Source: a virus
Lineage: Duplodnaviria > Caudoviricetes
Virus record (IMG/VR): IMGVR_UViG_3300005326_000040
Span: 160,001-224,000 of that record
Reading direction: 5' to 3' (one strand)
DNA length: 64,000 nucleotides
The number at the start of each line of letters is the position of its first letter. The stretch's first letter is position 1. Shown one piece after another: positions 10,191 through 40,496 of this stretch. The translations under genes and the position numbers were made by a program. The notes under the pieces are model-generated. The model was not told the origin of the DNA. It did not search any database and saw only the letters and a list, made by a program, of their open reading frames with translations.

Positions 10191-10732
10191 CCATTTGGTT
10201 TAGTTCTGACCATCATTTGTTTCATTCAGCGGTGATTAAATATTGCGACCGTCCATTTTCCTGCGCCCAGGAGATGTATGATATTCTGCTAGAGAATCAT
10301 AACACGCTCGTAAAACCAACAGATCAAGTATATTTCTTAGGTGATTTTGCTTTCAACTTACGTGATGATTCTCTTGAGAAAGCGTTTCGAGCATTCCATG
10401 GTAACAAACACTTTATCTTGGGAAATCACGACAAGAAAAAGCAAATAGAAAAGATAGCGAAACGCGGGGCAATCAATTGGGTAAAGGAAGTATACGGGCT
10501 AAAGGTAGATAAACACTATCTTTGGCTGAGTCATTATCCACATAGAAGCTGGAACAAATCATCTCATGGTTCGTTTCATCTTTTTGGACATTCTCACGGC
10601 GGCTTTGAAGATTATGGTTTATCTACTGACGTAGGTGTGGATGCGTGGAATTATCGCCCTGTTTCTTTTGAAATGATTCTTGAGCGATTCAAAAACAAAC
10701 AACCATTAAAGGTTATGCATGCCCAAAACTAG
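10187..10732 (+). CDS. calcineurin-like metallophosphoesterase
   Basis: SDHHLFH, LGDFA, GNHD, LSHYP, HLFGHSHG motifs. Confidence 0.92.
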   Translation: MTIWFSSDHHLFHSAVIKYCDRPFSCAQEMYDILLENHNTLVKPTDQVYFLGDFAFNLRDDSLEKAFRAFHGNKHFILGNHDKKKQIEKIAKRGAINWVKEVYGLKVDKHYLWLSHYPHRSWNKSSHGSFHLFGHSHGGFEDYGLSTDVGVDAWNYRPVSFEMILERFKNKQPLKVMHAQN

Positions 10733-11063
10733 AGTTGTTATATGCATTCCTGAAAAACCTCCGAAAGTTGATGATGTTACTTTAACGACAACCAATGTTA
10801 AATTGATACTAGGCACTCAGAGATATGTGTCTTACCATCGTGCGCAAGTAATTTTGGGTTTCAAATCTATATTTGGGATTTATGGCAATGATTGGATTAT
10901 TAATGTTGACCCACCGCCCGCAAACTATAAGGATTTCTTGCTTGGCGTTAAAGGCCCGTTTATTATTACGGAATTAAATTTCAACAACCTACGATGCTAT
11001 CAAATTACACAAATCTTTAATCGTTTTGAAGAATGGGATAAGATAGTAAAAAGCAGGTCTTAG
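10719..11063 (+). CDS. DUF3846-like paralog 1
   Basis: RVVICIPEKPPKVDD...NLRCYQITQIF. Confidence 0.6.
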   Translation: MPKTRVVICIPEKPPKVDDVTLTTTNVKLILGTQRYVSYHRAQVILGFKSIFGIYGNDWIINVDPPPANYKDFLLGVKGPFIITELNFNNLRCYQITQIFNRFEEWDKIVKSRS

Positions 11064-11450
11064 ATGAGTAGAGTAGCATATGGACGGGTTCGGGTAGTTT
11101 CATGTAAACCAAATGAGCCACCAAAGGTAATCGATATCAAAAATAGCTCAAAAAGAATGCAAGAACATTTGCTAGGACAGTATGTCTTTTTACCGAGAGG
11201 AAGACTTTTTATAAACAGAAGCATTTGTATTATCTGCAACCATCGAGAAAATCGTTATGAAATAGATGGGCGCGAATGGCCACCTGGGCACAGAAACAAT
11301 AACGTGTTCAATTCTAACGGCATAATTATCATCTGTAAAGTGATTGACGGTATGTTTACCTCATTAACGTGCAACGAAATTCAAGATGTTTTTACCGTAA
11401 TTGAAAAAAATAAAACCGAAACCAAGACAATTACGGTTGAAGCGGTTTGA
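11064..11450 (+). CDS. DUF3846-like paralog 2
   Basis: RVVSCKPNEPPKVIDIKN...SLTCNEIQDVF. Confidence 0.65.
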   Translation: MSRVAYGRVRVVSCKPNEPPKVIDIKNSSKRMQEHLLGQYVFLPRGRLFINRSICIICNHRENRYEIDGREWPPGHRNNNVFNSNGIIIICKVIDGMFTSLTCNEIQDVFTVIEKNKTETKTITVEAV

Positions 11451-11475
11451 CAAAGAAACCGAGGCGAGCTATCAT
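11447..11475 (+). promoter_or_regulatory. sigma70-type promoter facing a minus-strand ORF
   Basis: TTGACA-17 nt-TATCAT. Confidence 0.55.
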
Positions 11476-11663
11476 CGGTTTCGTAAGGCTTTGCATACGT
11501 TGTCGTACATTGTGTCTACTTCTAGAACGCTTGTTTCGAGTTTGGATACAGAAAGGTGATACGCAATAACTCCCATGATTTCGCGTTCCCATATTTGGGA
11601 ATGATGTTTCAGTTCTTCAATAGCTTTGCGTTCTATTTCAGCAAGTTTTTCATTGCGGTCCAT
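11472..11663 (-). CDS. small hypothetical protein
   Basis: Probable start MDRNEK at 11663 avoids overlap with 11694 gene. Confidence 0.45.
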   Translation of the reverse strand: MDRNEKLAEIERKAIEELKHHSQIWEREIMGVIAYHLSVSKLETSVLEVDTMYDNVCKALRNR

Positions 11664-11693
11664 ACATAAATACAAAACTAGAAATAGAAAAAC

Positions 11694-11993
11694 ATGAATC
11701 CACAAATGCTTCTCACTGGTCATAAAATAACTTCCTCTGCCCGCGAGTTATGGATTGAACAAGATTTTGTTGGGGCCATTGAATTTCTAAATGGATGCGT
11801 AGAAATGTCCGAGCGCGCAGCGATTGAAGTTTGTATCGGGCGTTCGAAACTAGAAGGCAACTCGTATTCCGGATATAAACTTGTCGCCGATTATAGTAAC
11901 AATTGGTGTGGTGTGAAGTTGCTTGGGATTGTGGAAGCGTTTCGTTCAGCCACAGCAAGCGTTACTTGGATGGGGTCAGCCAGTCACGATTAA
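11694..11993 (+). CDS. hypothetical protein
   Basis: 99-aa ORF. Confidence 0.6.
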   Translation: MNPQMLLTGHKITSSARELWIEQDFVGAIEFLNGCVEMSERAAIEVCIGRSKLEGNSYSGYKLVADYSNNWCGVKLLGIVEAFRSATASVTWMGSASHD

Positions 11994-12055
11994 ATTTTAT
12001 CAAGCAATGAATATCGGTGGATAAAAAAGAACACTAAACAATAGGAGAACAAGAA

Positions 12056-12268
12056 GTGCCCTGGAAGACAATTGATGAGGAGCGACGGAAGGAAGTAATT
12101 TCTATATTGCGCGCAAATATGGAAAAGCAATTACAAAAGATATCTTACTTAATGTCGCAACCTTACCCGTCGTTACATAAAATGGAAAAAGAAAAAGCTC
12201 AAGGTCTTTTAGAGGCTTATAAAGAAGCAATTGATACTCTTTCAGAGAATGTTTCGGTATCATCTTAG
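12056..12268 (+). CDS. hypothetical protein
   Basis: AGGAG RBS, GTG start, 70 aa. Confidence 0.7.
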   Translation: MPWKTIDEERRKEVISILRANMEKQLQKISYLMSQPYPSLHKMEKEKAQGLLEAYKEAIDTLSENVSVSS

Positions 12269-12396
12269 GAGGTTAGACCATGATGACCTTACAGTATTGG
12301 CTCAAGAAAATTGCGTGTATTTGTGTCTTTTTTGTTTGTGGTTTTATTTGTGGAGAATTCGATTTTTGTAAGGATGATTTGCCCGGAGAATGCTAG

Positions 12397-12798
12397 ATGA
12401 CAAAGCCGTCTATTGCTTGTAGCCCCCTACAAAATGGGACATATAGGTTTGCGTCAAAACCTTACAAGTATCTAGCGCATAATAGTAAAGGGTTTTTTAA
12501 TGAACATTTAGCTTCAACGATAAGTATTGAATCAAAACAAATGTTTATTGCAAGAATAGACGATAATTTAATGCGCACTATTATTAGCGTTGCTAATCGT
12601 TACGGCAGCCCTATACGTTACAATATTGATATTGTAGATAATGTTGCTTTCAAATCTTTTAGGGACGAGAATAATTGGATAGAAGTTGCAATTGCTTTAG
12701 AACATTTTTGTGCTCAAATAGAATGTCAACGAAAGCAAATGGAGATTTTCTGCAAAGAAATATCAGAACGCAATATGCAGAAAAAATATCAATGGTGA
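12397..12798 (+). CDS. hypothetical protein
   Basis: 133-aa ORF. Confidence 0.65.
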   Translation: MTKPSIACSPLQNGTYRFASKPYKYLAHNSKGFFNEHLASTISIESKQMFIARIDDNLMRTIISVANRYGSPIRYNIDIVDNVAFKSFRDENNWIEVAIALEHFCAQIECQRKQMEIFCKEISERNMQKKYQW

Positions 12799-12957
12799 TA
12801 ATCAATAATGGATTTTTCTGATTTCAAAAACAAGGAAGATGAAATAGAAATCAACGTCATTGATGTTGATTTTAATCTTGCGAAAGACCTCGAACAAATA
12901 ATCAAAGAAATTTATGCGGGGCTTCAAGTTCCAGAAGAATATCTTACAAAGGATTAA

Positions 12958-13401
12958 ATGAAAAACATAGGAGATATTGCAGATTCTTTATCGCAGATTG
13001 CGAATATTCTTTATCAATATCCGAGACTTCTGAAAGAGATTGAGAGTCTGCGGGGGCAAGTTAAATTGATGAGGAATCTTCTTGCGCTTTATGATTTGAA
13101 AAAGATTTACCCGCATGATGTTGAGCTTACCAAAACGATAGAATCATATCATAAGCAATATTGCAATAGAGTACTAGGGCAAACACCTGGATACTTACTG
13201 CCTCCTGGGTTTGGTTTGACAGAAGAAGAGTTTCTTAAGATTGCTAAACGGAATGTTTCTGAAAAGTCTTTTTTCTTACTTCAGGAATTTGCTGCAAAAA
13301 AGAAGAAAACACTCCCAGAAGCATTTGACGAAATGAAATCTGAAGAAATAACAATGGTCGATACGCCTAACGCTCGTAGGAAAACAGAGGATGGAAAATA
13401 G
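12958..13401 (+). CDS. hypothetical protein
   Basis: 147-aa ORF, AAGGA RBS. Confidence 0.7.
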   Translation: MKNIGDIADSLSQIANILYQYPRLLKEIESLRGQVKLMRNLLALYDLKKIYPHDVELTKTIESYHKQYCNRVLGQTPGYLLPPGFGLTEEEFLKIAKRNVSEKSFFLLQEFAAKKKKTLPEAFDEMKSEEITMVDTPNARRKTEDGK

Positions 13402-13615
13402 AATTACGCCCTGGTTAGTAAAGCTAATTCAATCTATTCCTTTTTTCCAACCAAAAGATAAGCTACAGCCAATCGATACCAATTCCCGATTGGCGCAGAT
13501 GTGTAAAGATATCCCTCCTGTAATCCCTGGGAAAATTTATTCTATTGATGATTTGAACAAAGCTTTAGAACATTTGAACGATTGTCCTTTTACTGAAAAA
13601 AATAAAAATGAATGA
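13391..13615 (+). CDS. hypothetical protein
   Basis: 74-aa ORF, GAGG RBS. Confidence 0.65.
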   Translation: MENRITPWLVKLIQSIPFFQPKDKLQPIDTNSRLAQMCKDIPPVIPGKIYSIDDLNKALEHLNDCPFTEKNKNE

Positions 13616-13892: not shown

Positions 13893-13894
13893 GC

Positions 13895-14260: not shown

Positions 14261-14445
14261 TGAGTGGCCAAATTATTACAATGAGAACGCTGAAGTACGC
14301 AGCGAGAAATCATCCTGAGAATCTTAGGAGACTGGCCTGCGCTCTGCATTTGAATATTGACGGAATGGGAAACATGCAAGTTGCAAAACTCATTTGGTGG
14401 CGTCTAAGGAAACTAAATCGCCCTGAGTTTTGTAATTGGGGATAG
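14260..14445 (+). CDS. hypothetical protein
   Basis: 61-aa ORF, TAATG overlap. Confidence 0.6.
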   Translation: MSGQIITMRTLKYAARNHPENLRRLACALHLNIDGMGNMQVAKLIWWRLRKLNRPEFCNWG

Positions 14446-14480
14446 TTGGAGCTATTCTAAGAATAATTGCTCATTTTTAT

Positions 14481-16043
14481 ATGAGCAAACCTAAAGGCAT
14501 TTTTACATCTAAATATTCTCAATATAAATATGGTGTTGGGCAAAGCGTTGATGAATTTATTGTTCCCAATCTTGATGCCGTTTCGTATTTGCCCGATGGC
14601 GGATTAAATGATGGTTGGACAATTTATGTTCAATCTATTAGAGCTTCATTCAAATTAGTTAAAGCCAGTACATTAACAGTAGATAACATCTCAGTGATGG
14701 CTACTAAAAGTGGTCTTGGCCGATGGCTTCGCGACACTAGTGAAATTGACCCTGTTTGGAAAGCTCAGCCTAACTGGTATGTTCATCCCACAAATGGTTC
14801 GGACGAAGCAACTGGAGCAGATGCAGACCATCCAATAAAAACTTTCAAAGAATGGTATCGTAGAACTGGCGGCACTGTGGAAGGTTTGACTATGACGCTT
14901 AATGTTATGACAAACATTCCATTAACGGATTCCTTCCCGTGCGTAGTTTCCATTAGAGAATATGGGAAGCTGCGCGTTGTTGGAACCAAAACAATTGCAG
15001 AGACTGGACAATTGTTAGGTTATACAGCACACAATTTTGCTAGCAATGCTAGTGCTCAAATATCGAAAAGCTCAGGTAACTGGGCAGCCCACGTCGGCAA
15101 ACTTGTACACATTGTTGAAAAAAATCTTTGGGTAAGAATTATAAAAGATCTTAACAATGGGTCTGCGACCGTTACCGTTCCTTATGGAATGACTAATGAA
15201 TATTCATCTGCCTATCTCAACTTTGTAGCAGGAACACCAGAGGCTGGCGATACTTATATTGTTTATGATTTGCCAACATTACCAATGTTAGTCGGTCTTG
15301 AAATACATGGTGATCAGAAGCGAGCAGCCACTGAAACTGAAACGTCTTTTGCAATGAAAGATGTCAGAATAACAACAGAAGCACCCACTGCTCAATTTAA
15401 AATGAGCAACACCACCATGTATACTGTTATGCTAAATCGGGTGGACATTCCAGGTGCCCAGTTTAATGGCTCAATATATTTCGCGTTTTGTCGTTCAGGA
15501 TATACTTCTTCGCCGTATATGACTGCTTGGGCAGACACCGCAATGACAACGTATTTGCGATGTCATTTACATACCGGCGGATATTTAACAACAATGGGCT
15601 CAAGTTATACATCGCAAGTTGTGTTGTGGGGAGTTGTTATTAGCGGAGGTTATCTTTGGGTAAGCGGTGGAACTAGCATAAGCGATAGTCTTGGTATGTT
15701 TGATGCTGCCAGTCCAATACGAATAGTGCATTCTGCTATATTAAATGTTTCATCAAACACATATGTTTATGGCAGCAACAATACGGGAACCGCAGTACAA
15801 GTTGAAGGTAAACTGACTGTGGCAGCAGCTAACATATCTAAGATAACAATTACGACCAACACTTCCGACGAACTACGAATTGGTGGTTCCGTAAATCTAT
15901 TGCCAGATATTACCGCATCTGCTGGCGCAGTTCTTCCGGCCGTTTCCGCTTGTGATACTTGGGCTAAATTGGCGGCTGCGCCATTCAATGGAAAAGCATT
16001 CAATTATTCCAACGGGGCATATATCGGCCCTAGCTTGCTCTAA
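14481..16043 (+). CDS. probable virion structural / tail-fibre-like beta-rich protein
   Basis: ~520 aa T/S/G/A-rich; WYVHPTNGSDEATGADADHPIKTF motif typical of beta-helix (pectin-lyase-like) protein N-termini. Confidence 0.55.
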   Translation: MSKPKGIFTSKYSQYKYGVGQSVDEFIVPNLDAVSYLPDGGLNDGWTIYVQSIRASFKLVKASTLTVDNISVMATKSGLGRWLRDTSEIDPVWKAQPNWYVHPTNGSDEATGADADHPIKTFKEWYRRTGGTVEGLTMTLNVMTNIPLTDSFPCVVSIREYGKLRVVGTKTIAETGQLLGYTAHNFASNASAQISKSSGNWAAHVGKLVHIVEKNLWVRIIKDLNNGSATVTVPYGMTNEYSSAYLNFVAGTPEAGDTYIVYDLPTLPMLVGLEIHGDQKRAATETETSFAMKDVRITTEAPTAQFKMSNTTMYTVMLNRVDIPGAQFNGSIYFAFCRSGYTSSPYMTAWADTAMTTYLRCHLHTGGYLTTMGSSYTSQVVLWGVVISGGYLWVSGGTSISDSLGMFDAASPIRIVHSAILNVSSNTYVYGSNNTGTAVQVEGKLTVAAANISKITITTNTSDELRIGGSVNLLPDITASAGAVLPAVSACDTWAKLAAAPFNGKAFNYSNGAYIGPSLL

Positions 16044-16345: not shown

Positions 16346-16945
16346 ATGCTTTCAGTTCTTGCATATGTTGCTCTTGCGTTTTTCTTTATTGTTATGTATG
16401 GGTCTATCGGCAATATTATGTCGAGGCTTTATCAAAATGCTATTTTGCGCCTCGCTAATAATAAGCGCGGACTATTTACGTTTATTATGTTTCCACAGAA
16501 AACATTGTTTGTATCTCACAATGATATTTTGAAGGATATTAGAAACAATAGCTGTGGGCCAGAAGTTTTCAATGAATTTCCAGCTGTTTGCGCTGATGAC
16601 GTTAAGGTAAATAATAGCAGTGGATTGCGATCTTATGAAGTGATTGGCAGATATGATCGAAAAGATGTTGATGATTATTGGACAAAACATCGAATCACTA
16701 TGTCTTTTCTTTGGCCCGCCCGTTTTCTTATCAGCTTTCTTCAATTGCTAACATTTAGTGTAATCTTCCCGGTATTCATTTTGTATTATATCTTCAAAGG
16801 CATTGAAAAACTAATGAACAATCACGAGTATATTGCTGCTCGTATCAAGTATTTGTTTTCTCGCTCTATTAAAGATGGGGTAGATCCTAATTCACACCCT
16901 TATAGAAACAAGAATGTAGCCGTAGCCTCCAGCGAAAAACAATAA
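16346..16945 (+). CDS. membrane protein (2 TM)
   Basis: AAGGAG RBS; two hydrophobic segments. Confidence 0.75.
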   Translation: MLSVLAYVALAFFFIVMYGSIGNIMSRLYQNAILRLANNKRGLFTFIMFPQKTLFVSHNDILKDIRNNSCGPEVFNEFPAVCADDVKVNNSSGLRSYEVIGRYDRKDVDDYWTKHRITMSFLWPARFLISFLQLLTFSVIFPVFILYYIFKGIEKLMNNHEYIAARIKYLFSRSIKDGVDPNSHPYRNKNVAVASSEKQ

Positions 16946-20551: not shown

Positions 20552-21184
20552 TTATTCGAGAGCATCTTCATCAGAAGAGTCAACAAGACCGTCAGTTAGA
20601 TGAGGATAATCTTTTTGCCATTTTGCTTTTAGTTCTTTTGCGCGAGCTAAATCATAATAAGGGCCGCGATTTTTCCCAATGCTATGACGCCCAGTTAGTC
20701 TATTTATCTCTGGCTCTTCATAATTTTGTAATGGATTTTTTCTGAATTCATTCATCTGCATGATTTCAGATAAAGTTGGAACATTTAGTTTTTCACAAAT
20801 CCAATCAACAACCATTTTAGAAATATAAGACTGTACATTTTCGCCGGTTAATGCTTTGTGTACGGATTCAAGTTGATCGGAGTCTAAACCAATTACGTCT
20901 AAGAATCTTAGAAGTTCATCAGGAGATTCGCTGTCTTCTGGTAGATCCTCTAAAATGTAATGAAAACTATCTTCTTCAGCATTGGCTCGCTCCCAGATTT
21001 TATCATAAATTTCTTCAACATAATTCTTGGGTTCATCACCAGCTTGTTCATCAACTTCTAGAGGTACATCAGCAGGCACATCAATAATATCGTCAGCAGC
21101 TTCGGCGCCTTCAAATAAAGAATCTTTTTCTTCGGCAAATTTCTTAAACATCTTCGCCGCTGTAACTAAAGCTTTAGTATCCAT
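20552..21184 (-). CDS. acidic hypothetical protein (N-terminal KKFA motif)
   Basis: 210-aa minus-strand ORF filling an otherwise empty gap. Confidence 0.75.
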   Translation of the reverse strand: MDTKALVTAAKMFKKFAEEKDSLFEGAEAADDIIDVPADVPLEVDEQAGDEPKNYVEEIYDKIWERANAEEDSFHYILEDLPEDSESPDELLRFLDVIGLDSDQLESVHKALTGENVQSYISKMVVDWICEKLNVPTLSEIMQMNEFRKNPLQNYEEPEINRLTGRHSIGKNRGPYYDLARAKELKAKWQKDYPHLTDGLVDSSDEDALE

Positions 21185-21235
21185 AATATCAATGTTTCAA
21201 TATTCCTTGGTTAGTAAGTTCTATTTGAAATAGAT

Positions 21236-21445
21236 TTGCTGGCGGGGGAAGAAACTTATAGAGGGAATATGATCGACCTAGCTTATATTGAAAGCAGGTG
21301 CAAAACACTTCATTTAAAATTGCCAGCTTTGGCACAATTGAAAGCAGCACAGCTAAAAAACGACAAGGAAAGCGTAGAAAGGATAGCAAAGAATATCCTC
21401 AGCTTCTTATCTGAAAGAAGTAGCAAACCTGGAAATACTAGATAA
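21236..21445 (+). CDS. hypothetical protein (start probably ATG 21269)
   Basis: GAGGG RBS before MIDLAY. Confidence 0.55.
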   Translation: MLAGEETYRGNMIDLAYIESRCKTLHLKLPALAQLKAAQLKNDKESVERIAKNILSFLSERSSKPGNTR

Positions 21446-21466
21446 TATATCTTATGTTGCCGTTAC

Positions 21467-21494
21467 TTGACAGCTTCAAAAATTTTGATATCAT
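21467..21494 (+). promoter_or_regulatory. sigma70-type promoter
   Basis: TTGACA-16 nt-TATCAT. Confidence 0.7.
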
Positions 21495-21505
21495 AAGAGG
21501 GATAT

Positions 21506-21712
21506 ATGTCTGACCAGGAAATCTGCGTTGAAAACAAATCTGACGAAGTTGCTATTGCTGAAAGGCTCCGCGTAAAGATGGGGCCATTCGTGTGCTTCTG
21601 GTATGGGGGGAACCTTACAGTTGCTACGGATCTAAATACGACTGACAACCTAGTAGTTTTTCCCAAATCATCCGCACGCATTATTGTGAAGACATCAAGA
21701 CGACACAAATAG
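21506..21712 (+). CDS. hypothetical protein
   Basis: GAGGGG RBS, 68 aa. Confidence 0.65.
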   Translation: MSDQEICVENKSDEVAIAERLRVKMGPFVCFWYGGNLTVATDLNTTDNLVVFPKSSARIIVKTSRRHK

Positions 21713-21744
21713 ATTATACACGATCTTTTCAGTAAGCGGGAAAA

Positions 21745-21963
21745 GTGGAAAACATGGTTGAAAGCGTAAAAAATAATTTGCTTGAAAAGGAAATCGACCC
21801 GCAGGACGCAGAATTTTTGCGTAAGATTATCTTAAAATTGTACAACAACAGGAAAAAACTAGATGCGAGCCAGAGACTTACAGCGGTTAATCTTGTTCTC
21901 AAGCTAGCCATCACACGAGACGCCGCTCAACTCGTTATCCCTCCCATGGATAATCTCGAATAG
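21745..21963 (+). CDS. hypothetical protein
   Basis: 72-aa ORF followed by terminator. Confidence 0.65.
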   Translation: MENMVESVKNNLLEKEIDPQDAEFLRKIILKLYNNRKKLDASQRLTAVNLVLKLAITRDAAQLVIPPMDNLE

Positions 21964-21993
21964 TTTTCATTCCCAACAAACGAACCGTAAGAG

Positions 21994-22030
21994 GCGGGGC
22001 GGTCACCAGACTGCCCCGCTTTCTTTTTCT
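21994..22030 (+). terminator. Rho-independent terminator
   Basis: GCGGGGCGG/CTGCCCCGC stem plus T-run. Confidence 0.85.
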
Positions 22031-22457
22031 AATACACATAGGACGCGCTTTCAATTCAAAGACGACCCAACGGTTATGATTGAATTGTTTGTCACTCAAA
22101 AAGAATTGAATGTAGGTGTATGTCTTACCTATAAAATGGGTGAATTATTTTAATTGAAGAGAGCTAGGAAGTGGAGATATATAAAACTCCGAGCGTAGCG
22201 AGGAGTTTAATTTAATTTAAATTTAAGTATCTGGTTAAAGATCTACTACGTAGATCTTTAACGCGAAAAATTTCGCAACATAAAAAATTTTCCACGTTCG
22301 GGTGCAGAATAATTATCACAAAAATAGAAAACATAAACACTTTTGGAAGCAATATTTGACGGTGTTCGTTTCCTCTATTTTTACCCTCAAAAAAGCTCAG
22401 CACACATTTGCACACAGCTGAACAGATTTCAACTCACATTATGCAATTTGAGTGTTC
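22031..22457. other. AT-rich non-coding region with palindromes (replication-origin candidate)
   Basis: No convincing ORF; 12-bp inverted repeat TTAAAGATCTAC/GTAGATCTTTAA (22235-22261), GCGAAA/TTTCGC, AT-only run ~22206-22226. Confidence 0.35.
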
Positions 22458-22486
22458 TTGACAGAACGAAAACCCCATGGTAGAGG
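22458..22486 (+). promoter_or_regulatory. sigma70-type promoter
   Basis: TTGACA-17 nt-TAGAGG. Confidence 0.5.
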
Positions 22487-22495
22487 GGGTGAGCG

Positions 22496-22650
22496 GCTCA
22501 GGTAACCGTTCGACACAACCGGGAAATTTGATACCTGAGTGAACGAATTGAAGCGAGTGTCCAACTTGGACAACCGCTGAACCAATTCTCACTGGAAATC
22601 AAAGGAAGGAAAGTTCGTTCAATCGTTGTTTTTGCCTCTTTATCTTGAGG
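22496..22650 (+). ncRNA. putative structured 5' leader / small RNA
   Basis: Stems CTCAGGTA/TACCTGAG; nested GAATTG..AGCG..TGTCC/GGACA..CGCT..CAATTC; competing TGAACGAA/TTCGTTCA; GCCTC/GAGGC. Confidence 0.45.
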
Positions 22651-22669
22651 CTGGTACACCGCAAGAACG

Positions 22670-23341
22670 ATGAAACGTGACACATATCTTTCTATAGACC
22701 TTGACTATTGGTGCGATGATGCGGGCAGTTCACGTATCAATTCTTTCTTCGATCAGCTATTAAATGAAACGAAGGTACAAAAACTGTATCTTGTTTCCTC
22801 ACATGAGATGCTGTTGTCTCACATTGACTCATGTGATTGTGTGGACTTGATAAATGTTGATTTCCATTCTGACCTAGCTGATGACGCTAAATGTGCTGAG
22901 TATATAAGACCATTGAAGTTAAATGAAGGCACATGGGTAAACTTTGTAAAATGGAAGAATCGAAAGCAATTCAATTGGTATCATCCTCATCCTAACAAGT
23001 TCTCGTTGGATTTTGGATATTGTCACGCTACAATAAATCCGTTCTTGGATAATAAATTAGCTAATACTGGATGGAAAAAAGTAGTAAAGACTAAAGGTCA
23101 TCTTAAAGACGGTATACCCTGGAACAAAGTAGCCGCAGTTGGAATAGCTATTAGCTATCCATGGTTATTAAGAGGCGCGCAGAGACATCCTTTTGAAACT
23201 GTTTACTCTAGCGTTCTGCCATCATTGCTCGGCATCAAGGATATCAGGAAAGCTGAGACATTTGCGAAGCAAGTGAAAGTGAGGAGGGAGATAGATCTTG
23301 GCTTGTTCGAAAAGAGATGGAACGAGCTAGCTTCTCGATAG
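22670..23341 (+). CDS. putative metallohydrolase, arginase/deacetylase-like (UPF0489-like)
   Basis: LSIDLDYW, SSHE, INVDFHSDL, NEGTWV metal-ligand-like motifs. Confidence 0.45.
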   Translation: MKRDTYLSIDLDYWCDDAGSSRINSFFDQLLNETKVQKLYLVSSHEMLLSHIDSCDCVDLINVDFHSDLADDAKCAEYIRPLKLNEGTWVNFVKWKNRKQFNWYHPHPNKFSLDFGYCHATINPFLDNKLANTGWKKVVKTKGHLKDGIPWNKVAAVGIAISYPWLLRGAQRHPFETVYSSVLPSLLGIKDIRKAETFAKQVKVRREIDLGLFEKRWNELASR

Positions 23342-25947: not shown

Positions 25948-26238
25948 ATGCGTTCTGTATGGTGTCCAGCAGATTCGGAACCATATGTAGCCGATTGTTT
26001 ATTCCCAGAATTTAGTTTCCGGGTCAGATCATTTTTAAAGATTAGCGATACTGCGCATATATTATGTTCAACCAAATCGGTATTTGCTCCGTATCGCGTT
26101 GTGCTTCCAGCAAGTAGATTTGATGTAAATTATTATGCGCCTTTTAAACCTTTTGTGATAGTTGCGCACCCTCAGTGGGAGGATCTGTCGTGCGAGGATA
26201 ATGTGAAAATTTTCAAAATACTTAATAGGGAGTACTAA
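25948..26238 (+). CDS. DUF3846-like paralog 3
   Basis: MRSVWCPADSEPYVAD...DLSCEDNVKIF. Confidence 0.6.
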   Translation: MRSVWCPADSEPYVADCLFPEFSFRVRSFLKISDTAHILCSTKSVFAPYRVVLPASRFDVNYYAPFKPFVIVAHPQWEDLSCEDNVKIFKILNREY

Positions 26239-26532
26239 ATGCGCGTTTTGGTTTTTCCTGTAGATGCGGAGCCTTATGTAAAAGACTTTTATGATGACAA
26301 CTTTTCTGGGCAAGCCCAATTGATTGTTGGGCAAAAGCAAAGATGTCTGTTTAGGGCGCCTGGATTTCATCCATATCGCGTTATAACAGGGAATTCAAAT
26401 GTAAACATCGTAAGACCTTTTATTGTAATTTCTGAATTTGCATGGAGTAATTTGTGTTGTGACGATATTACACGCATTTTAAATTTGGTAAAGCAAATGG
26501 AAGATAAAGGGAAAAATAAAAATGAGCATTAA
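26239..26532 (+). CDS. DUF3846-like paralog 4
   Basis: MRVLVFPVDAEPYVKD...NLCCDDITRIL. Confidence 0.65.
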   Translation: MRVLVFPVDAEPYVKDFYDDNFSGQAQLIVGQKQRCLFRAPGFHPYRVITGNSNVNIVRPFIVISEFAWSNLCCDDITRILNLVKQMEDKGKNKNEH

Positions 26533-26837: not shown

Positions 26838-27224
26838 ATGTATTTGGATAGACTTTTCCGCGCTTCTAGAGATAAGCTTTTTTATTGGGCGCAGTTTGAT
26901 CATTTATATCCTCAGATTTATGCTGTAGAATTGTTTTTTGATTCGCCGGTTGTGAGTTTAGATGAAGTGTTATGTTTTGGTCGGGGACATTTTTTATACG
27001 CAGGAGAAAATGGCACTTGGAATGAAAATTCCGCCCAACAAATGACAACGCTTTTGTGGAAGAATATGTCTCATTATGCGCGCGGTTGTAATTTGTCAGC
27101 CGTTTCATTTTCTAATCTTCCCAGATCGATTTTCGAAATAACACTTAGAGAACTTATGTGCAGTATAAAGAAGTGTCCTGGGCCATGGTTGACTGAAGAG
27201 GAAAAACTAAAAGAGATTAAATAA
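26838..27224 (+). CDS. hypothetical protein
   Basis: GAGG RBS, 128 aa. Confidence 0.7.
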   Translation: MYLDRLFRASRDKLFYWAQFDHLYPQIYAVELFFDSPVVSLDEVLCFGRGHFLYAGENGTWNENSAQQMTTLLWKNMSHYARGCNLSAVSFSNLPRSIFEITLRELMCSIKKCPGPWLTEEEKLKEIK

Positions 27225-28660: not shown

Positions 28661-29041
28661 ATGAACGACCCTGCGGTTCGTGGTAAGAGTGTTTTGCGAG
28701 TTGTGCGATGCCCTTTGGATGGCCCGCCAGAGGTTATTGATCTGAAAAACGATTACAGGTGTTTTTCAGAAGCTGTTTTTGATAAGAGCACAGATACAGT
28801 TTATGGGTTTTATTCTGACATTTCTAGAGGGGGAGACAAGTTTGGCACTGATTATATGGTTATTTATGGTTATTATTCCCGCACGGTAAATGTGTATGGA
28901 TATCGCGGGATAATTCTTATTGTGAATTGGGATAAAGCTTCTAATAATGCTGTTGATATGAAGTGCTCAAATATCATTGAGGTCTTCAAAAAGATTACGC
29001 GTTCCAAAGCGGCAAGGAAGCGCGTTAAAAAGGCTAGATAA
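28661..29041 (+). CDS. DUF3846-like paralog 5
   Basis: LRVVRCPLDGPPEVIDLKN...DMKCSNIIEVF. Confidence 0.65.
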   Translation: MNDPAVRGKSVLRVVRCPLDGPPEVIDLKNDYRCFSEAVFDKSTDTVYGFYSDISRGGDKFGTDYMVIYGYYSRTVNVYGYRGIILIVNWDKASNNAVDMKCSNIIEVFKKITRSKAARKRVKKAR

Positions 29042-33512: not shown

Positions 33513-34949
33513 ATGAAAGTCACTGTTATTGTTCCTTTTGTTCGAATGGAGAATTTCGACAGATGCATTGAATCCATTCGAAAAAATCATGGATTGAGTG
33601 AAGATCCCGAGATTATTTGGGAACAGGACGAACTTGGTATCGGCTGTCCACGAATGGTAAAAAAATTGGTGGACAAATCGACCACCGATTTGGTTTGTTT
33701 TCTTGGAGATGATACCGAGCCCCAGCCAAACTTTCTGAGAAACGCTTTAGCTATGATGCGAAAGCTGGACTTATGGATGGTTGGATTTAATGACACTCAT
33801 ACGGTTCGTCCAACACATTGGTTAGCCAGCAAGAAACTTCTTAACGAAAGAGGGGAGTTTTTTGATACTCGGTTTGTACATAATTATTCTGATACAGAAC
33901 TGATGTTTCGTGCGGAACGGTTGGGGAAGTATGCTTGGTGTGAACAAGCTGTTGTTTTACACCATAACCCGTTAGCGGAAAAAAACATAAAACAAATCGA
34001 TAAGTTTTATCAACGGGGAGCAGATTACTTAAATCAAGACGAAAATCTTTTTCACGAATTGTGTTCTAAAGTATCTGTTGGCATGATTGTAAAGAATGAA
34101 GAAGTCATGTTGGCAGAGTGTCTTGAATCAGTAAAGGGCGCGGATGAAATAGTTGTTGTTGACACTGGTTCAACCGATCGAACCAAAGAAATAGCTGCTA
34201 GATATACTGATAAGATATACGATTTCAAATGGATTGATGATTTCGCGGCAGCTAGGAATTTCGTTATATCGAAATGTTCTCATGACTGGATTCTGTCTAT
34301 AGATGCTGATCAGTTATTGCTTCCCGGCAGTTTAGAACACTTCAAAGCTTTCTTACGTTCAAATGTAGAAATGCTGACTATTGGCACACACATGGTTGAC
34401 CCTGGTGTAGAATATTATGTGCCTAGGTTTTTCCGTAACGTTCCTTGCAATAGATGGCAGGGTATGATTCATGAAGCTATTGTGTTGACGCCCGGCAGGC
34501 ATATTGAATTGTCGGAAGTAAAGATTACCAGTAGGTTTAGTCCAGCGCATACTCAAGACCCAGATAGAAGTGTACGAATTCTATTGAAAGCGGTAGAGAA
34601 GGAACCAACAAGTTCTCGTTACTGGTATTACTTGGGACGGGAATACTGTTACCTCAAAGAATTTGAAAAAGCAGTATCTTGTTTAGATAAATGTGTTTCT
34701 TTTTGCGCGTGGTTACCTGAAAGAGCAGACGCATATTATTTGAAAGCGCTTTCTTTATGGTATCTTTGTAAGGGAGATAAAGCAAGAGAGGCTTGTTTTC
34801 AAGCTTTGTCTATCAACTCTGAATTCAAGTCTGCCTCTTTGCTTATGGCAGAAATGTCATGGGACCATAACAAAGCGGGTTGGCTTAGGATGGCTAACGG
34901 GGCAACCAATCAAGACGTTTTGTTTCGACGCGAAACGTTGTGCTTTTAG
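33513..34949 (+). CDS. double GT2 glycosyltransferase with TPR tail
   Basis: First GT-A: VIVPF..LGDD..YSDTE..HHNP; second: MIVKNEE..LAECLESV..DTGSTDRT..DFAAARN..SIDAD; C-terminal TPR-like helices. Confidence 0.9.
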   Translation: MKVTVIVPFVRMENFDRCIESIRKNHGLSEDPEIIWEQDELGIGCPRMVKKLVDKSTTDLVCFLGDDTEPQPNFLRNALAMMRKLDLWMVGFNDTHTVRPTHWLASKKLLNERGEFFDTRFVHNYSDTELMFRAERLGKYAWCEQAVVLHHNPLAEKNIKQIDKFYQRGADYLNQDENLFHELCSKVSVGMIVKNEEVMLAECLESVKGADEIVVVDTGSTDRTKEIAARYTDKIYDFKWIDDFAAARNFVISKCSHDWILSIDADQLLLPGSLEHFKAFLRSNVEMLTIGTHMVDPGVEYYVPRFFRNVPCNRWQGMIHEAIVLTPGRHIELSEVKITSRFSPAHTQDPDRSVRILLKAVEKEPTSSRYWYYLGREYCYLKEFEKAVSCLDKCVSFCAWLPERADAYYLKALSLWYLCKGDKAREACFQALSINSEFKSASLLMAEMSWDHNKAGWLRMANGATNQDVLFRRETLCF

Positions 34950-36609: not shown

Positions 36610-36830
36610 GATGACAGCAAAAGAAGCGCTGGAAAGAATTAGAAAGGTAAATGAACGTCTTTCTAAAATAGCAAGCGGAGAACTTCGGCCAAGGGTTATT
36701 GTTCAAACCCATGATGGTGGTGTTCGTATCTCAGCTAAGATAGTATTGGAAGAGAGCAAACTGATGCCTAATGAAAACTAGCTTGTCTTTTTGATTTCAA
36801 CGGAGAATACGTTTACAGGGGATAAACGTT

Positions 36831-37907
36831 ATGAGCACCGATGACGACGATAGAAGTTTTCGTTTCGAGTGGGCAAAGTTAGCAAATCAATTCAATGAAA
36901 AGGTTCGTTCTGATTTACTGGAAAGAAGTGGAGGAGATGCTGCTTCTTTGGTAATGTCAAAAGAGAATTTTATGCAAATGGGAGCGTCCCTTTGGGAACA
37001 TACCTATGCTGTTTGTCCAGATAATGATTCTGCTGCTTTTGATAACTTGCTTAAGTACTGGACTAGGACGGGACAGGAAACCCTTGTTCTTGCTGCTGGC
37101 TCTCCTGACATGCAGCTTACGCTTGGTTGGGTAGCCCGCTGGGCCGATCAAGCGTTCCCTCAAGTAATTCTTGGTCAAAGAACAGCAGCGGCTTTGATGG
37201 GGACATCCGCTTCCGAAGAAGTTGTAGAGAATCTTCATGCTCCTTGGAAGGCGTTTCTTGTCAATATCCCTCCTGGATTGTTGACTATTTATGATGATAC
37301 TGTTAAGCGGCAGGTATCAGCAACGTCTTTGGCTGTTCATGAAACGACGCGAGCGGGAGTTGGGACAACTTGGAATTGGCGCCTATCTTCTATGGAGTCT
37401 ACTGTTCAATTGTGGCAGTTTGGAATTACAACTAAGGAATTGGTTCAAGCAGACCTTTATGGATTCAGTGATAAGGAACTAGAAGACCTATTTGCCGACA
37501 GCGTAGATGACCAAGATAAGCGTCTTATGAGGCTTGTTGGTAGGTTGATTGTTGGCATCTGTCTCACTTTCCCTGACAACAACAAACGAGTAGGCGCTGG
37601 CCATAAGAAAGGCGCGCCTTTTCATGGATTTATCAAACAGGGAGAAGAGTTTGTTTGTGTTTCTCGGAGCTATGAACTAAGACCTCCTATCACAATTGAT
37701 TGCCGAGAGGCGATTAAGGATTATGTTGAACATGGGTCCAGGAGAGGTCACAGTCCTACTGTTCGTACGCTTGTTCGTGGAACCTATCGGCGACCTCCTC
37801 GGGGCATTGAAAAGGGACTGCCAAAGACAGTTTGGGTACAACCTCATTGGCGCGGCCCTAAGGATGCTCCTATTGTGGTTCGCGCGCATAAAGATAAGAA
37901 TCAATAA
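36831..37907 (+). CDS. hypothetical phage protein
   Basis: 358-aa ORF; C-terminal VRG.YR...WVQPHWRGP motif. Confidence 0.85.
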   Translation: MSTDDDDRSFRFEWAKLANQFNEKVRSDLLERSGGDAASLVMSKENFMQMGASLWEHTYAVCPDNDSAAFDNLLKYWTRTGQETLVLAAGSPDMQLTLGWVARWADQAFPQVILGQRTAAALMGTSASEEVVENLHAPWKAFLVNIPPGLLTIYDDTVKRQVSATSLAVHETTRAGVGTTWNWRLSSMESTVQLWQFGITTKELVQADLYGFSDKELEDLFADSVDDQDKRLMRLVGRLIVGICLTFPDNNKRVGAGHKKGAPFHGFIKQGEEFVCVSRSYELRPPITIDCREAIKDYVEHGSRRGHSPTVRTLVRGTYRRPPRGIEKGLPKTVWVQPHWRGPKDAPIVVRAHKDKNQ

Positions 37908-37950
37908 AAGATATGAATTAGCTATAGCCTAAACAACTAGAAAGAAAGAC

Positions 37951-38316
37951 ATGCCTTCTAATAAGCTAATTAGGATGATCTATTTAGAAGTGGGTCGGGA
38001 ACCAAGAGTAATTGATCTTGGTTTTGATTGGGGTAAACAAGAACAATTGAAAGAATGGACTGATCTTCTTGGTATTAATTTTGGTTGGTATAGATTGTAC
38101 AGTAAAATTTCGGGCGATCGTGCAATGCATGATTATGAAGGCGAATGTAAAACAGGTTATTCTCTATTGTTTGAAAGGTCTTACAGACTGTTTCAAATTA
38201 AGAGTCCTAATGTTAACGCCATTATTGCAAAAGGTGATGGTGTGCTTCAGTCTATGAAGTGTCAAGACATCACTGAAATCTTTGAATTTATCGAAGCTTG
38301 CAAAAGACTGCCGTAA
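37951..38316 (+). CDS. DUF3846-like paralog 6
   Basis: IRMIYLEVGREPRVIDL...SMKCQDITEIFEFIE. Confidence 0.65.
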   Translation: MPSNKLIRMIYLEVGREPRVIDLGFDWGKQEQLKEWTDLLGINFGWYRLYSKISGDRAMHDYEGECKTGYSLLFERSYRLFQIKSPNVNAIIAKGDGVLQSMKCQDITEIFEFIEACKRLP

Positions 38317-38620
38317 AATGTCTCGAAAAACCATAGTAGATAAACGTAAACATAAGGTTTCTATTGAATATAAAGACGAGGAGGTTTTCTTTAAGGGTGA
38401 TACAGTTGGTATAAGGCTATTCAAAAGGGACGAAAACGATAACCATATTCTTTTTCAGCTGCTAGTAGAGGATGATGGGGATTGGTTTCCAAGCAATGGT
38501 GGTGTTTCAACATATTTTCTTGACGAGCATTTCGTTATTATAGATACCGTAAAGCAATGGTTGTATATGAATTGTGAACCTGATGGTAATGGTGGCTGGA
38601 AGTTCAAAGGCGGGAAGTAA
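38282..38620 (+). CDS. hypothetical protein (start may be ATG 38318)
   Basis: ORF between flanking genes. Confidence 0.65.
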   Translation: MNLSKLAKDCRKMSRKTIVDKRKHKVSIEYKDEEVFFKGDTVGIRLFKRDENDNHILFQLLVEDDGDWFPSNGGVSTYFLDEHFVIIDTVKQWLYMNCEPDGNGGWKFKGGK

Positions 38621-38622
38621 AA

Positions 38623-39408
38623 ATGGGCGACATTATTCGTTATCCTAGAACCTTACACATACGTGGCTCACGTAAAACTGGAGATGATTTTGAACTAGAA
38701 GATGTTTCTTTTGAGGAAGCGCTTCAAGGCAAGTATGTTGTTTACGAGGCGAAAATTGACGGTTCAAATTGTGCCGTTAGTTTTGAAGACTCACGAATGA
38801 TTCTTCAGTCTCGTGGTCATGAGCTTCGTGGCGGGCCAAGAGAAAGAGAATTTCAGCAGCTTAGAATTTGGGCAAACAGATATCAGCATGACTTGTTTGA
38901 TATTTTAGGCAATCGTTATATCTTTTATGCAGAGAACATGTTTGCAAAACATACTGTATTTTACGATAACCTTCCTCATTGGATATTTGAATTTGACATT
39001 TTTGATAAGGAAAGAAGACTTTTCCTTTCTACCAAAGCTCGTCGTCGTCTTCTAGAAGGTCTTGAGTATGTAGCTGCTCCTGTTGTATATGAGGGGACAG
39101 CCACAACACTAGAGCATTTGAAATCTTTTATTGGGCGTTCGGCATATAAGACTGACAATTGGAAGGAGAATTTGGGGCTTCAAGCTGAAAGATGTAATTA
39201 TGATGTCGCTCTTGCGATAGCTCAAACCGATCAATCTGATTTGGATGAGGGAATTTATATCAAGGTTGAAACTGAAGAAGAAACGGTTGGGCGATATAAG
39301 TTTGTAAGAGACAGCTTTACGAATAGCATTTTGAATCAAGGGTCTCATTGGCATGATAGGACTTTGATTCCTAATCAGCTGGCAGATAGTCACTGCTTTA
39401 AACTGTAG
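38623..39408 (+). CDS. RNA ligase family protein (Rnl2-like nucleotidyltransferase)
   Basis: YPRT.HI, motif I KIDG.N, AENMFAKH..FY, FEFDIFD, EGIYIK, YKFVR. Confidence 0.88.
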   Translation: MGDIIRYPRTLHIRGSRKTGDDFELEDVSFEEALQGKYVVYEAKIDGSNCAVSFEDSRMILQSRGHELRGGPREREFQQLRIWANRYQHDLFDILGNRYIFYAENMFAKHTVFYDNLPHWIFEFDIFDKERRLFLSTKARRRLLEGLEYVAAPVVYEGTATTLEHLKSFIGRSAYKTDNWKENLGLQAERCNYDVALAIAQTDQSDLDEGIYIKVETEEETVGRYKFVRDSFTNSILNQGSHWHDRTLIPNQLADSHCFKL

Positions 39409-39416
39409 GTGTTATC

Positions 39417-39767
39417 TTGGACGACAAACCTAGGCTTTTTCGGGTAATAATTATTGACCCCAAAAAGGAACCAAAAGTTGTAGATATGCCGATTACATAT
39501 AGTAGCTTATGTAAAATATTGGGTAGGTCATATGGTGCTTGTCGCCTGAATCATCCTCTGGCGAATTGCGATAACTACAAAGTTTATTATCGATATGGTA
39601 GTTTAGATTTAAATCTAGAATCATTAGATTCGCCCGCAATAATAATAAAACAACCGAGATTTTGCAATGTAACGTCGCTAAATTGCAACGATATTACTCT
39701 TATTATGAAATACATTGAAGATGGCAAACAAAGGTTAACAACGCCAGTGCGGCCGGTATCTTTTTAG
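39417..39767 (+). CDS. DUF3846-like paralog 7
   Basis: TTG start; FRVIIIDPKKEPKVVD...SLNCNDITLIMKYIE. Confidence 0.75.
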   Translation: MDDKPRLFRVIIIDPKKEPKVVDMPITYSSLCKILGRSYGACRLNHPLANCDNYKVYYRYGSLDLNLESLDSPAIIIKQPRFCNVTSLNCNDITLIMKYIEDGKQRLTTPVRPVSF

Positions 39768-39780
39768 AACAGGTGTTGTC

Positions 39781-40110
39781 TTGGATAATGACCTCAAGCT
39801 TTTTCGAGTAATAATCATTGAGCCTAAAAAGGAACCAAAAGTAAAAGTTATAGACACACCAATTACATATCGTGTTTTGTGTGCTATGTTTGGTCCGTCG
39901 TATGGTGCGTCTTTTATGCCAACTATGCCACAATACAGAATTTATTATAGCTACAGAGTTTCGCCTATCGATGTAACTAAGTTAAATTCGCGTGCTATAA
40001 TAGTGAAACAACCAATATTTCTTGAGAGGACATCGCTAAATTGCAATGATATTACTCTTATTATGAAACACATTGAAGAGAACAAACCGAGAGTAGCAGA
40101 ACCAGCATAG
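39781..40110 (+). CDS. DUF3846-like paralog 8
   Basis: TTG start; FRVIIIEPKKEPKVKVID...SLNCNDITLIMKHIE. Confidence 0.75.
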   Translation: MDNDLKLFRVIIIEPKKEPKVKVIDTPITYRVLCAMFGPSYGASFMPTMPQYRIYYSYRVSPIDVTKLNSRAIIVKQPIFLERTSLNCNDITLIMKHIEENKPRVAEPA

Positions 40111-40118
40111 GTGATATC

Positions 40119-40496
40119 TTGAACGATAGGTTGTTTGTTCGGGTAATAATTGTTGCTCCTGGAAAAGAGCCGGAAGTTAAAGACATACTATTTACGTACG
40201 AAAACTTATGCAAGGTTCTTGGTGGAGGTTATTTTACTCGTCTTCTTGGGTCTGATCTTCCAACAGTTAATTACAAAATTGCTTGTCGTAAAACTGATAG
40301 TAATGTAGGCGAGCTTCAGTTGGGTGTGCCGTACAGCATGGTTATAATATTTAAAGTAGACGGCTTGTCAGTAAAACAGATGCTTTGTAGCGATATAACT
40401 TTTATCATGAACTACATTGAACAACAGAAACGTGTATACGAAGCTCTTTCAAATTCAGAGATATTCATGAGGAAGATATTCATGAGGAAGCTATGA
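40119..40496 (+). CDS. DUF3846-like paralog 9
   Basis: TTG start; VRVIIVAPGKEPEVKD...MLCSDITFIMNYIE. Confidence 0.75.
   Translation: MNDRLFVRVIIVAPGKEPEVKDILFTYENLCKVLGGGYFTRLLGSDLPTVNYKIACRKTDSNVGELQLGVPYSMVIIFKVDGLSVKQMLCSDITFIMNYIEQQKRVYEALSNSEIFMRKIFMRKL

What the first reader, a model, noticed from the sequence alone, without database searches (positions are those of the whole stretch)
10719..40496. Nine dispersed paralogs of a small DUF3846-like protein with conserved ends and a variable core
Seen: 10719, 11064, 25948, 26239, 28661, 37951, 39417, 39781 and 40119 share an N-terminal (R)V-hyd-hyd-hyd-P-x-x-(E/P)-P-x-V-x-D and a C-terminal (S/N/D)-(L/M)-x-C-x-(D/E/N/Q)-(I/N)-x-x-(I/V) helix with an invariant Cys, while the middles are nearly unalignable. 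Nine copies in 30 kb, some in pairs and a triplet, is a striking expansion. Inference: a diversifying scaffold, such as a library of anti-defence or host-protein inhibitors. This is among the best candidates for an undescribed system here.
Basis: partly seen in the sequence, partly recalled or inferred. Interest (0 to 1): 0.65.

Follow-up and report, generated by a model that had tools for sequence, protein, structure and literature searches.

The report
Sixteen diverged DUF3846-like genes, jumbo phage
An uncultured 338-kb phage keeps 16 old, intact copies (nine in this window) of a small protein that is a strongly altered offshoot of DUF3846, a domain of unknown function often fused to anti-restriction proteins; they are most likely a kit of small binding proteins for host takeover, but this is untested.

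Summary
All nine ORFs exist. An HMM finds exactly 16 intact members on the 338-kb contig and no decayed copies. Each passes a leave-one-out test (E 4e-6 to 3e-26; best non-member E 0.06).

They are a divergent branch of Pfam DUF3846. None reaches Pfam's cut-off, but the family profile retrieves true DUF3846 proteins (19 of 21 outside hits), hhalign gives 99.3%, and two AlphaFold models and an ESM model match DUF3846 folds (TM 0.5-0.7).

"Conserved ends, variable core" is real. The core scores at random level (0.03, against 1.16 in canonical DUF3846), and it is where canonical members carry their best motifs (VGGxIE, NEEG), all lost here. The family instead has an invariant Cys at the start of the last helix and is basic (pI 9.0 against 4.8).

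The copies are old (long branches; two outside proteins nest among them). In the youngest pair omega is 0.69 in the core and 0.25 at the ends, so positive selection is not shown.

Canonical DUF3846 is fused to ArdA, YodL and DpnD-PcfM in mobile elements, which indirectly supports a counter-defence or takeover role. No function has been tested for any member.

The parts
10719..11063 (+). Family member, 114 aa; first gene of a tandem pair
   Evidence: ORF; leave-one-out HMM E 1.3e-11; C-terminal motif NLRCYQITQI
11064..11450 (+). Family member, 128 aa; second of the pair, starting right after the stop of the first; best Pfam DUF3846 score of all copies
   Evidence: Leave-one-out E 8.6e-18; Pfam DUF3846 19.7 bits, E 9.6e-4, below the 27.5-bit cut-off
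25948..26238 (+). Family member, 96 aa; first of a tandem pair; weakest member by HMM
   Evidence: Leave-one-out E 3.7e-6; AlphaFold model pLDDT 82.8, pTM 0.77, same strand/helix order, best BFVD hits are DUF3846 proteins
26239..26532 (+). Family member, 97 aa; second of the pair
   Evidence: Leave-one-out E 6.2e-8; sister of 25948 in the tree, support 97/87
28661..29041 (+). Family member, 126 aa; single copy; strongly basic C-terminal tail (net +8)
   Evidence: Leave-one-out E 2.1e-16; charge by segment
37951..38316 (+). Family member, 121 aa; single copy, upstream of the RNA ligase gene
   Evidence: Leave-one-out E 2.9e-11
39417..39767 (+). Family member, 116 aa; first of a triplet directly after the RNA ligase gene; TTG start preceded by AGGTG
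   Evidence: Leave-one-out E 2.9e-26; AlphaFold model pLDDT 85.2, pTM 0.76; BFVD DUF3846 hits TM 0.5-0.66; upstream sequence
39781..40110 (+). Family member, 109 aa; second of the triplet; youngest duplicate (53% identical to 39417)
   Evidence: BLASTP E 1.6e-36 to 39417; sister in the tree, support 100/98; dS 0.75, dN 0.34
40119..40496 (+). Family member, 125 aa; third of the triplet
   Evidence: Leave-one-out E 1.7e-17; groups with the other two, support 90/75

Best explanation
Shown: the nine ORFs belong to a family of 16 intact single-domain proteins (96-139 aa) on this 338-kb phage contig, and the family is a strongly diverged branch of the DUF3846 fold. The N-terminal beta-hairpin, strand 5 and the C-terminal helix form a conserved frame. 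The segment between them (helix 1 and the loops around strands 3 and 4) varies freely in sequence and length. Canonical DUF3846 keeps its most conserved motifs in that same segment. Inferred: the ancestral functional site was given up, and the same face was re-used as a variable binding surface. Each paralog would then bind a different host (or phage) macromolecule, probably to block defence or take over host processes. The invariant Cys at the start of the last helix and the basic charge would be features of this subtype's shared mode of action. The family grew by tandem duplication followed by dispersal, mostly long ago.
For: Family reality: leave-one-out HMM; exactly 16 intact copies and no fragments. 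DUF3846 kinship: 19 of 21 outside profile hits are PF12957; hhalign 99.3%, E 2.9e-20; fold matches to DUF3846 proteins from two AlphaFold models and from an independent ESM model. Frame versus core: mean column score in the core is 0.03 for the family and 1.16 for canonical DUF3846, while the ends are alike (1.51 and 1.16 against 2.08 and 1.02), permutation p about 0.005. Column conservation correlates between the two sets at the ends (rho 0.67) but not in the core (rho 0.11). The motifs N, VGGxIE, CNEEG, N and G are lost. The core is 45-69 residues long, and model confidence is lowest in the two indel-rich loops. In the youngest pair the core changes about four times faster than the ends (dN 0.57 against 0.13). 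Selection keeps the copies: all are intact despite long branches (median 1.65 changes per site), and omega is below 1. Link to counter-defence: canonical DUF3846 is fused to ArdA, LPD18 and DUF4316 and to YodL, DpnD-PcfM and DUF4314, one plasmid hit lies inside an annotated ArdA gene, and polyvalent proteins of phages and conjugative elements are read as conflict weaponry (PMC5512222). Setting: all copies are co-directional and tightly packed among small unannotated + strand genes. Tandem origin: the triplet and the 25948/26239 pair are each other's closest relatives.
Against: No member of DUF3846 has an experimentally known function in the searchable literature, so the counter-defence link is guilt by association only. 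It comes from canonical members, whose conserved site this family has lost. Omega stays below 1 even in the core, so faster change may reflect relaxed constraint rather than target-driven diversification. The family is basic while ArdA-type inhibitors and canonical DUF3846 are acidic. The contig has no ArdA. Early expression is assumed from gene layout and earlier unverified notes; promoter and terminator scans were at chance level. Both AlphaFold models used the same family alignment, so their agreement is not fully independent.
Confidence: 0.4

Rival explanations
1. The paralogs are small nucleic-acid-binding proteins, for example RNA chaperones or regulators that serve the phage's own RNA-rich early region or coat DNA. 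The basic core and the Lys/Arg-rich tail would contact the backbone, and the variable core would give sequence or structure preference.
For: Median pI is 9.0, against 6.7 for the contig's 161 other proteins of 90-140 aa and 4.8 for canonical DUF3846. The charge gain lies in the core (+1.6 against -2.3) and in a basic tail after the last helix (+1.9 against -0.8). The triplet directly follows an RNA ligase gene. Earlier unverified notes describe tRNA-like RNAs and hairpins between genes in the same part of the genome.
Against: No known nucleic-acid-binding fold or motif was detected. Three members are near neutral or slightly acidic. Adjacency to an RNA ligase holds for one array out of nine places.
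Confidence: 0.2
2. The invariant Cys is chemically active. The proteins would be thiol-dependent enzymes, redox or metal-binding modules, or acceptors of a covalent modification, and the variable core would choose the substrate.
For: Cys is the only invariant non-initiator side chain besides one Val across the 16 paralogs, and both outside relatives have it too. It is the first helical residue of the C-terminal helix in both models. It replaces the Asp (47%) that canonical DUF3846 has in the same column. From general protein chemistry, thiols at helix N-termini tend to have lowered pKa.
Against: No second invariant polar residue such as His could complete a catalytic dyad or a metal site. The nearby Asp is kept in only 75% of members. 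No similarity to any thiol enzyme was found.
Confidence: 0.12
3. Nothing special diversifies. These are ordinary old duplicates of a small accessory protein, of the kind jumbo phages accumulate. They would do one common job, perhaps as homo- or hetero-oligomers, and the core drifts because only the frame matters.
For: Paralog arrays are known in jumbo phages (over 30 similar genes in phage G and 121Q; PMC5646251). This contig has several other small paralog families in the same region. Omega is below 1 throughout. Branches are very long.
Against: Sixteen copies have stayed intact over divergence that saturates synonymous sites, with no pseudogene, which argues that each copy is individually useful. 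The drifting part is exactly where the ancestral family is most constrained.
Confidence: 0.2

Closest known systems
Pfam DUF3846 (PF12957), solo proteins of phages and Bacillota mobile elements
   Same: Same predicted fold (beta-beta-alpha-beta-beta-beta-alpha). Homology by profile-profile comparison is 99.3%. Both share the N-terminal hairpin (basic residue-V...P...P-x-V-x-acidic residue-I) and the C-terminal S-L-x-x-x-D/E-I helix. Size is similar, about 100 aa..
   Different: No copy reaches Pfam's cut-off (best 19.7 against 27.5 bits). The canonical motifs VGGxIE and (C)NEEG are absent. An invariant Cys replaces the usual Asp at the helix start. The family is basic rather than acidic (pI 9.0 against 4.8). 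There are 16 copies per genome, against 1 (rarely 3) in 10 of 301 sampled bacterial genomes and one place per record in 29 phage and 11 plasmid records.
ArdA-DUF3846(-LPD18)-DUF4316 polyvalent proteins of conjugative elements (concept: Iyer et al. 2017, PMC5512222)
   Same: They contain the same domain superfamily. They belong to invading DNA elements and give the only functional association available for the domain..
   Different: Those are proteins of about 580 aa with several domains, including the acidic restriction-enzyme binder ArdA. Here every copy is a solo single domain, and the contig has no ArdA. The copies also lack the head-protease tag proposed for this phage's packaged proteins (1 hit in 1,902 residues).
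Tandem paralog arrays of jumbo phages (phage G and 121Q; Hua et al. 2017, PMC5646251)
   Same: Gene-family expansion in a phage genome of over 200 kb, at least partly by tandem duplication.
   Different: [quoted passage not shown] Here 16 deeply diverged genes (mostly 20-30% identical) lie in nine places over 91 kb. Phage G itself has no member of this family by either profile.

Membership tests
Pfam DUF3846 (PF12957) | Score at or above Pfam's gathering cut-off (27.5 bits) against the family HMM | tested here: not met
   Best copy (11064) scores 19.7 bits, E 9.6e-4. Two more are below 15 bits and six have no hit. A whole-contig scan gives 2 sub-threshold matches and none over the cut-off.
Pfam DUF3846 (PF12957) | Homology to bona fide members by profile methods | tested here: met
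   The family profile against 1.84 billion representatives gives 21 outside hits, of which 19 are PF12957 (best E 1.6e-30). hhalign of A2 against A3 gives 99.3%, E 2.9e-20, over 100 columns.
Pfam DUF3846 (PF12957) | Same three-dimensional fold | tested here: met
   Two AlphaFold models (pLDDT 85 and 83) have DUF3846 proteins among their best BFVD hits, TM 0.5-0.66. The ESM Atlas model matches DUF3846 clusters at TM 0.64-0.70. All are predicted models; no solved structure exists.
Pfam DUF3846 (PF12957) | Canonical conserved motifs in the middle of the domain (N, VGGxIE, CNEEG, N, G) | tested here: not met
   These columns are 73-93% conserved in 15 canonical sequences, but no residue exceeds 62% in any of them among the 16 paralogs (G 56% and 38% at the GG pair; NEEG positions 19-25%; the last G 62%).
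Polyvalent proteins (Iyer et al. 2017) | Two to fifteen conflict-related domains in one polypeptide | tested here: not met
   All 16 are single-domain proteins of 96-139 aa. Fused forms exist only for canonical DUF3846 elsewhere.
ArdA/Ocr-type DNA-mimic anti-restriction proteins | Strongly acidic surface that mimics DNA; ArdA domain | tested here: not met
   Family median pI is 9.0 and net charge at pH 7 ranges from -1.2 to +8.5. There is no PF07275 match on the contig, and the control genome was detected.
Jumbo-phage tandem arrays of near-identical genes (Hua et al. 2017) | One block of many very similar genes | tested here: not met
   The copies lie in nine places. Most pairs are 20-30% identical, with a maximum of 53%.

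The most novel reading that the evidence does not exclude
The Cys-bearing, basic subtype is a new functional class built on the DUF3846 frame. It would be a phage-encoded repertoire of 16 target-specific small binders or inhibitors, each aimed at a different host defence or housekeeping factor. The ancestral active face would have been converted into a hypervariable recognition surface, and the invariant helix-start Cys would provide a shared chemical step, such as covalent or metal-mediated capture.
Probability: 0.2. Interest if true: 0.75.

Novelty: new variant of a known kind. Interest (0 to 1): 0.45.

Why it matters
DUF3846 is widespread in phages, plasmids and conjugative elements and is often fused to anti-restriction modules, yet I found no experimental work on it. 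This phage offers a natural comparison: 16 copies that keep the frame but have exchanged the ancestral conserved face for variable sequence, plus one new invariant residue. That separates what the fold needs from what the function needs, and it gives 16 ready-made variants for binding or defence screens. It also shows that routine annotation misses the whole family, because every copy is below Pfam's threshold. Similar hidden expansions may therefore be under-counted in huge phages.

Tried and rejected
- No DNA-level relatives of the region were found in the phage or plasmid collections, and tblastn with a window copy against phages found nothing.
- PHROGs gave no significant hit for any of the nine copies.
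- The PDB gave nothing useful: no sequence hit, no Foldseek hit at E <= 0.001, and a wide structural search peaked at Z 5.2 (Mrs2 N-terminal domain), which is within the tool's stated chance range.
An RNA-ligase relative (152 kb contig, 78% identical ligase) and an FtsK-like relative (62 kb contig) are not syntenic and have no member; both records are incomplete. P0011 and P0013 are not in IMG/VR. The 90%-cluster protein search returned only this phage's own proteins.
- dN/dS is saturated for all pairs but one.
- Promoter and terminator scans were at chance level.
- The contig's other two small paralog families are not hidden relatives (hhalign probability <= 0.2%).
- The head-protease tag is not enriched in the family.
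- A sub-threshold CRISPR-repeat hit at 21326-21361 has no repeats around it.
Full report
**What is there.** The window is bases 160001-224000 of a single 338,055-bp virus contig that CheckV rates as 97% complete. In a nine-way alignment, R, P, V and D of the N-terminal motif and a C-terminal Cys are invariant.

**Size and reality of the family.** An HMM built from the nine copies and run over all 1,646 ORFs of at least 50 aa on the contig finds seven more members. They lie upstream of the window at genome positions 109341, 123081, 123417, 129329, 129699, 130018 and 150803. The search converges at 16 members. A search of stop-to-stop frames down to 25 aa finds the same 16 and nothing between E 5e-19 and E 1.4, so there are no decayed copies. 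In leave-one-out tests each member is recovered by a model that does not contain it (E 3.7e-6 to 2.9e-26), and the best non-member scores E 0.057 or worse. All 16 genes are co-directional. They lie in nine places over 91 kb, as two triplets, three pairs and four singles, with gaps of 0-13 bases inside most arrays. The three genes of the window triplet start with TTG preceded by AGGTG.

**Kinship with DUF3846.**
- Pfam gives only sub-threshold DUF3846 hits. The best is 19.7 bits against a cut-off of 27.5, and six copies have no hit at all. A whole-contig scan with the Pfam model finds nothing over the cut-off. PHROGs gives nothing significant.
- The 16-member profile, run against 1.84 billion representative proteins, finds only 31 proteins at E <= 0.001. 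Ten of these are this phage's own. Of the 21 outside hits, 19 are bona fide PF12957, with a best E of 1.6e-30.
- Profile-profile comparison gives 99.3% probability, E 2.9e-20, over 100 columns.
- An AlphaFold model of the 39417 protein (pLDDT 85.2, pTM 0.76; strand/helix order beta-beta-alpha-beta-beta-beta-alpha) has phage proteins annotated as DUF3846 among its best BFVD hits, at TM 0.5-0.66 and probability 1.00.
- The weakest member (25948) folds with the same topology (pLDDT 82.8, pTM 0.77) and hits the same proteins.
- An independent ESM Atlas model matches DUF3846 clusters at TM 0.64-0.70.
- No solved structure resembles the fold or the sequence.

So the family is a divergent branch of the DUF3846 superfamily that routine annotation would miss.

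**Conserved ends, variable core.** I aligned the 16 paralogs with 15 canonical single-domain DUF3846 proteins and scored each column by mean BLOSUM62 pair score.

| Segment | Paralogs | Canonical DUF3846 |
|---|---|---|
| N-terminal hairpin | 1.51 | 2.08 |
| Strand 5 and C-terminal helix | 1.16 | 1.02 |
| Core (reference residues 25-73) | 0.03 | 1.16 |

- The difference in pattern has a permutation p of about 0.005.
- Column conservation correlates between the two sets at the ends (rho 0.67) but not in the core (rho 0.11).
- Canonical members have their strongest motifs in the core (N, VGGxIE, CNEEG, N, G; 73-93% conserved). The paralogs have lost them.
- The paralogs keep a Tyr in strand 4 (81%) and have an invariant Cys where canonical members mostly have Asp (47%). 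In both models this Cys is the first residue of the C-terminal helix.
- The core is 45-69 residues long in the family, and model confidence is lowest in its two indel-rich loops.
- The family is basic (median pI 9.0). The contig's 161 other proteins of 90-140 aa have a median of 6.7, and canonical DUF3846 has 4.8.
- The charge gain lies in the core, the helix region and a Lys/Arg-rich tail.

**Age and mode of expansion.** In a maximum-likelihood tree, canonical DUF3846 separates from the Cys subtype on a long branch (support 88/97). Terminal branches are very long, with a median of 1.65 changes per site. The window triplet and the 25948/26239 pair are each other's nearest relatives. Two outside proteins, P0011 and P0013, carry the Cys motif. 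Each sits on a 1,229-bp contig from a public sequencing run, probably the same contig as a tandem pair. They nest inside the paralog set next to 25948/26239 (96/88). Most of the diversification is therefore old and predates the split from at least one other element. Synonymous sites are saturated for all pairs except 39417/39781. For that pair omega is 0.25 at the ends and 0.69 in the core (dN 0.13 against 0.57). The core does change faster, but positive selection is not shown.

**How unusual is 16?**
- tblastn with a canonical member finds 29 phage and 11 plasmid records, each with a single place.
- In 301 bacterial genomes sampled from the class of Bacillus sp. M6-12, 10 have DUF3846: one copy each, and three in the seed genome.
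- Phage G has none, and Brevibacillus phage Jenst has one.
- No close relative of this phage carrying the family could be found.
- Expansion as such is known in jumbo phages: more than 30 similar genes in tandem in phage G and 121Q (PMC5646251). This contig also has other small paralog families, unrelated to this one.

**Function.** I found no experimental work on DUF3846. The only functional lead is domain association. Canonical DUF3846 is fused to ArdA, LPD18 and DUF4316 in proteins of about 580 aa. It is also fused to YodL, DpnD-PcfM, DUF4314, DUF5688 and Amidoligase_2/LIM, and it occurs as a double domain. Such multi-domain proteins of phages and conjugative elements are interpreted as weaponry for establishing the element in a new cell (PMC5512222). 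That paper does not name DUF3846.

This phage has no ArdA. The paralogs also lack the tag proposed for this phage's capsid-packaged proteins. Annotated neighbours are few: an RNA ligase directly before the triplet, a family-2 glycosyltransferase with TPR repeats, and weak metallophosphoesterase and NlpC/P60 hits.

My best reading (confidence about 0.4) is that the frame is a stable scaffold and the former functional face has become a variable binding surface. That would give a set of small soluble binders used in host takeover or counter-defence. The rivals are nucleic-acid binding (supported by the basic charge), thiol chemistry at the invariant Cys, and ordinary old duplicates with a drifting core.

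**Verdict.** The DUF3846-like assignment is confirmed at superfamily level, but the family is a distinct subtype that fails Pfam's threshold and lacks the canonical motifs. The inhibitor-library idea remains an untested inference, and ongoing diversifying selection is not demonstrated.

Noticed in passing
window 26838-27224 (+); also genome 124791-126952, outside the window: A second paralog family: five tandem copies upstream of the window plus one in the window, all ending in a conserved C-P-G-P-W-(M/L)-T-E-E-E-K motif. In both places it lies just downstream of a DUF3846-like pair (123081/123417 and 25948/26239), which suggests an old segmental duplication of a two-family cassette. It is unrelated to the DUF3846-like family (hhalign probability 0.2%).
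   Followed up: partly
genome 104695-107966 (outside the window, about 52-55 kb before its start): A third family of six small paralogs (115-128 aa) with a conserved C-terminal C-x-(L/F)-Y-(R/K)-(V/I)-L...F-P motif. It is unrelated to the other two families by hhalign.
   Followed up: partly
window 14436-16043 (+) and 16346-16945 (+): The 535-aa ORF belongs to a four-member family of proteins of about 520 aa spread over the contig. The 199-aa ORF belongs to a three-member family. Neither has a Pfam or PHROG hit.
   Followed up: no
window 38623-39408 (+): An RNA ligase (PF09414, E 1.2e-29) sits between copy 37951 and the triplet. A 78%-identical ligase lies on IMG/VR contig IMGVR_UViG_3300008255_002756 (152 kb), but the neighbourhood there is not syntenic.
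   Followed up: partly
window 2282-3965 (+): Four tRNA genes: Arg-CCT, Met-CAT, Gln-CTG and Ile-TAT.
   Followed up: no
window 20552-22700: This stretch holds only short ORFs on mixed strands. It has a sub-threshold Rfam CRISPR-DR22 hit at 21326-21361 (29.9 bits against a gathering score of 50). No direct repeats were found, so this is most likely a chance hit.
   Followed up: yes
window 33513-34949 (+); 55102-56256 (+); 56269-57477 (+); 57492-58751 (+): The recognisable genes in the window are a family-2 glycosyltransferase with TPR repeats (which has a paralog at genome 35783), an FtsK/SpoIIIE-like ATPase, an AAA ATPase and an HNH endonuclease-type protein (phrog_1314).
   Followed up: no
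L008:5061-8546 (Bacillus sp. M6-12, NZ_PGVF01000001.1): A canonical DUF3846 protein (280 aa) lies just downstream of a bacterial PARP-like gene (WGR + PARP_reg + PARP catalytic domains), with one unassigned 357-aa ORF between them. The same genome has three DUF3846 copies within about 120 kb.
   Followed up: no
P0011 and P0013 (Logan assembly, contig of 1,229 bp): These are the only outside proteins with the Cys-bearing motif (L-x-C-N-D-I/L-T-x-I-F). They are probably a tandem pair on one short contig of an unsampled relative.
   Followed up: partly
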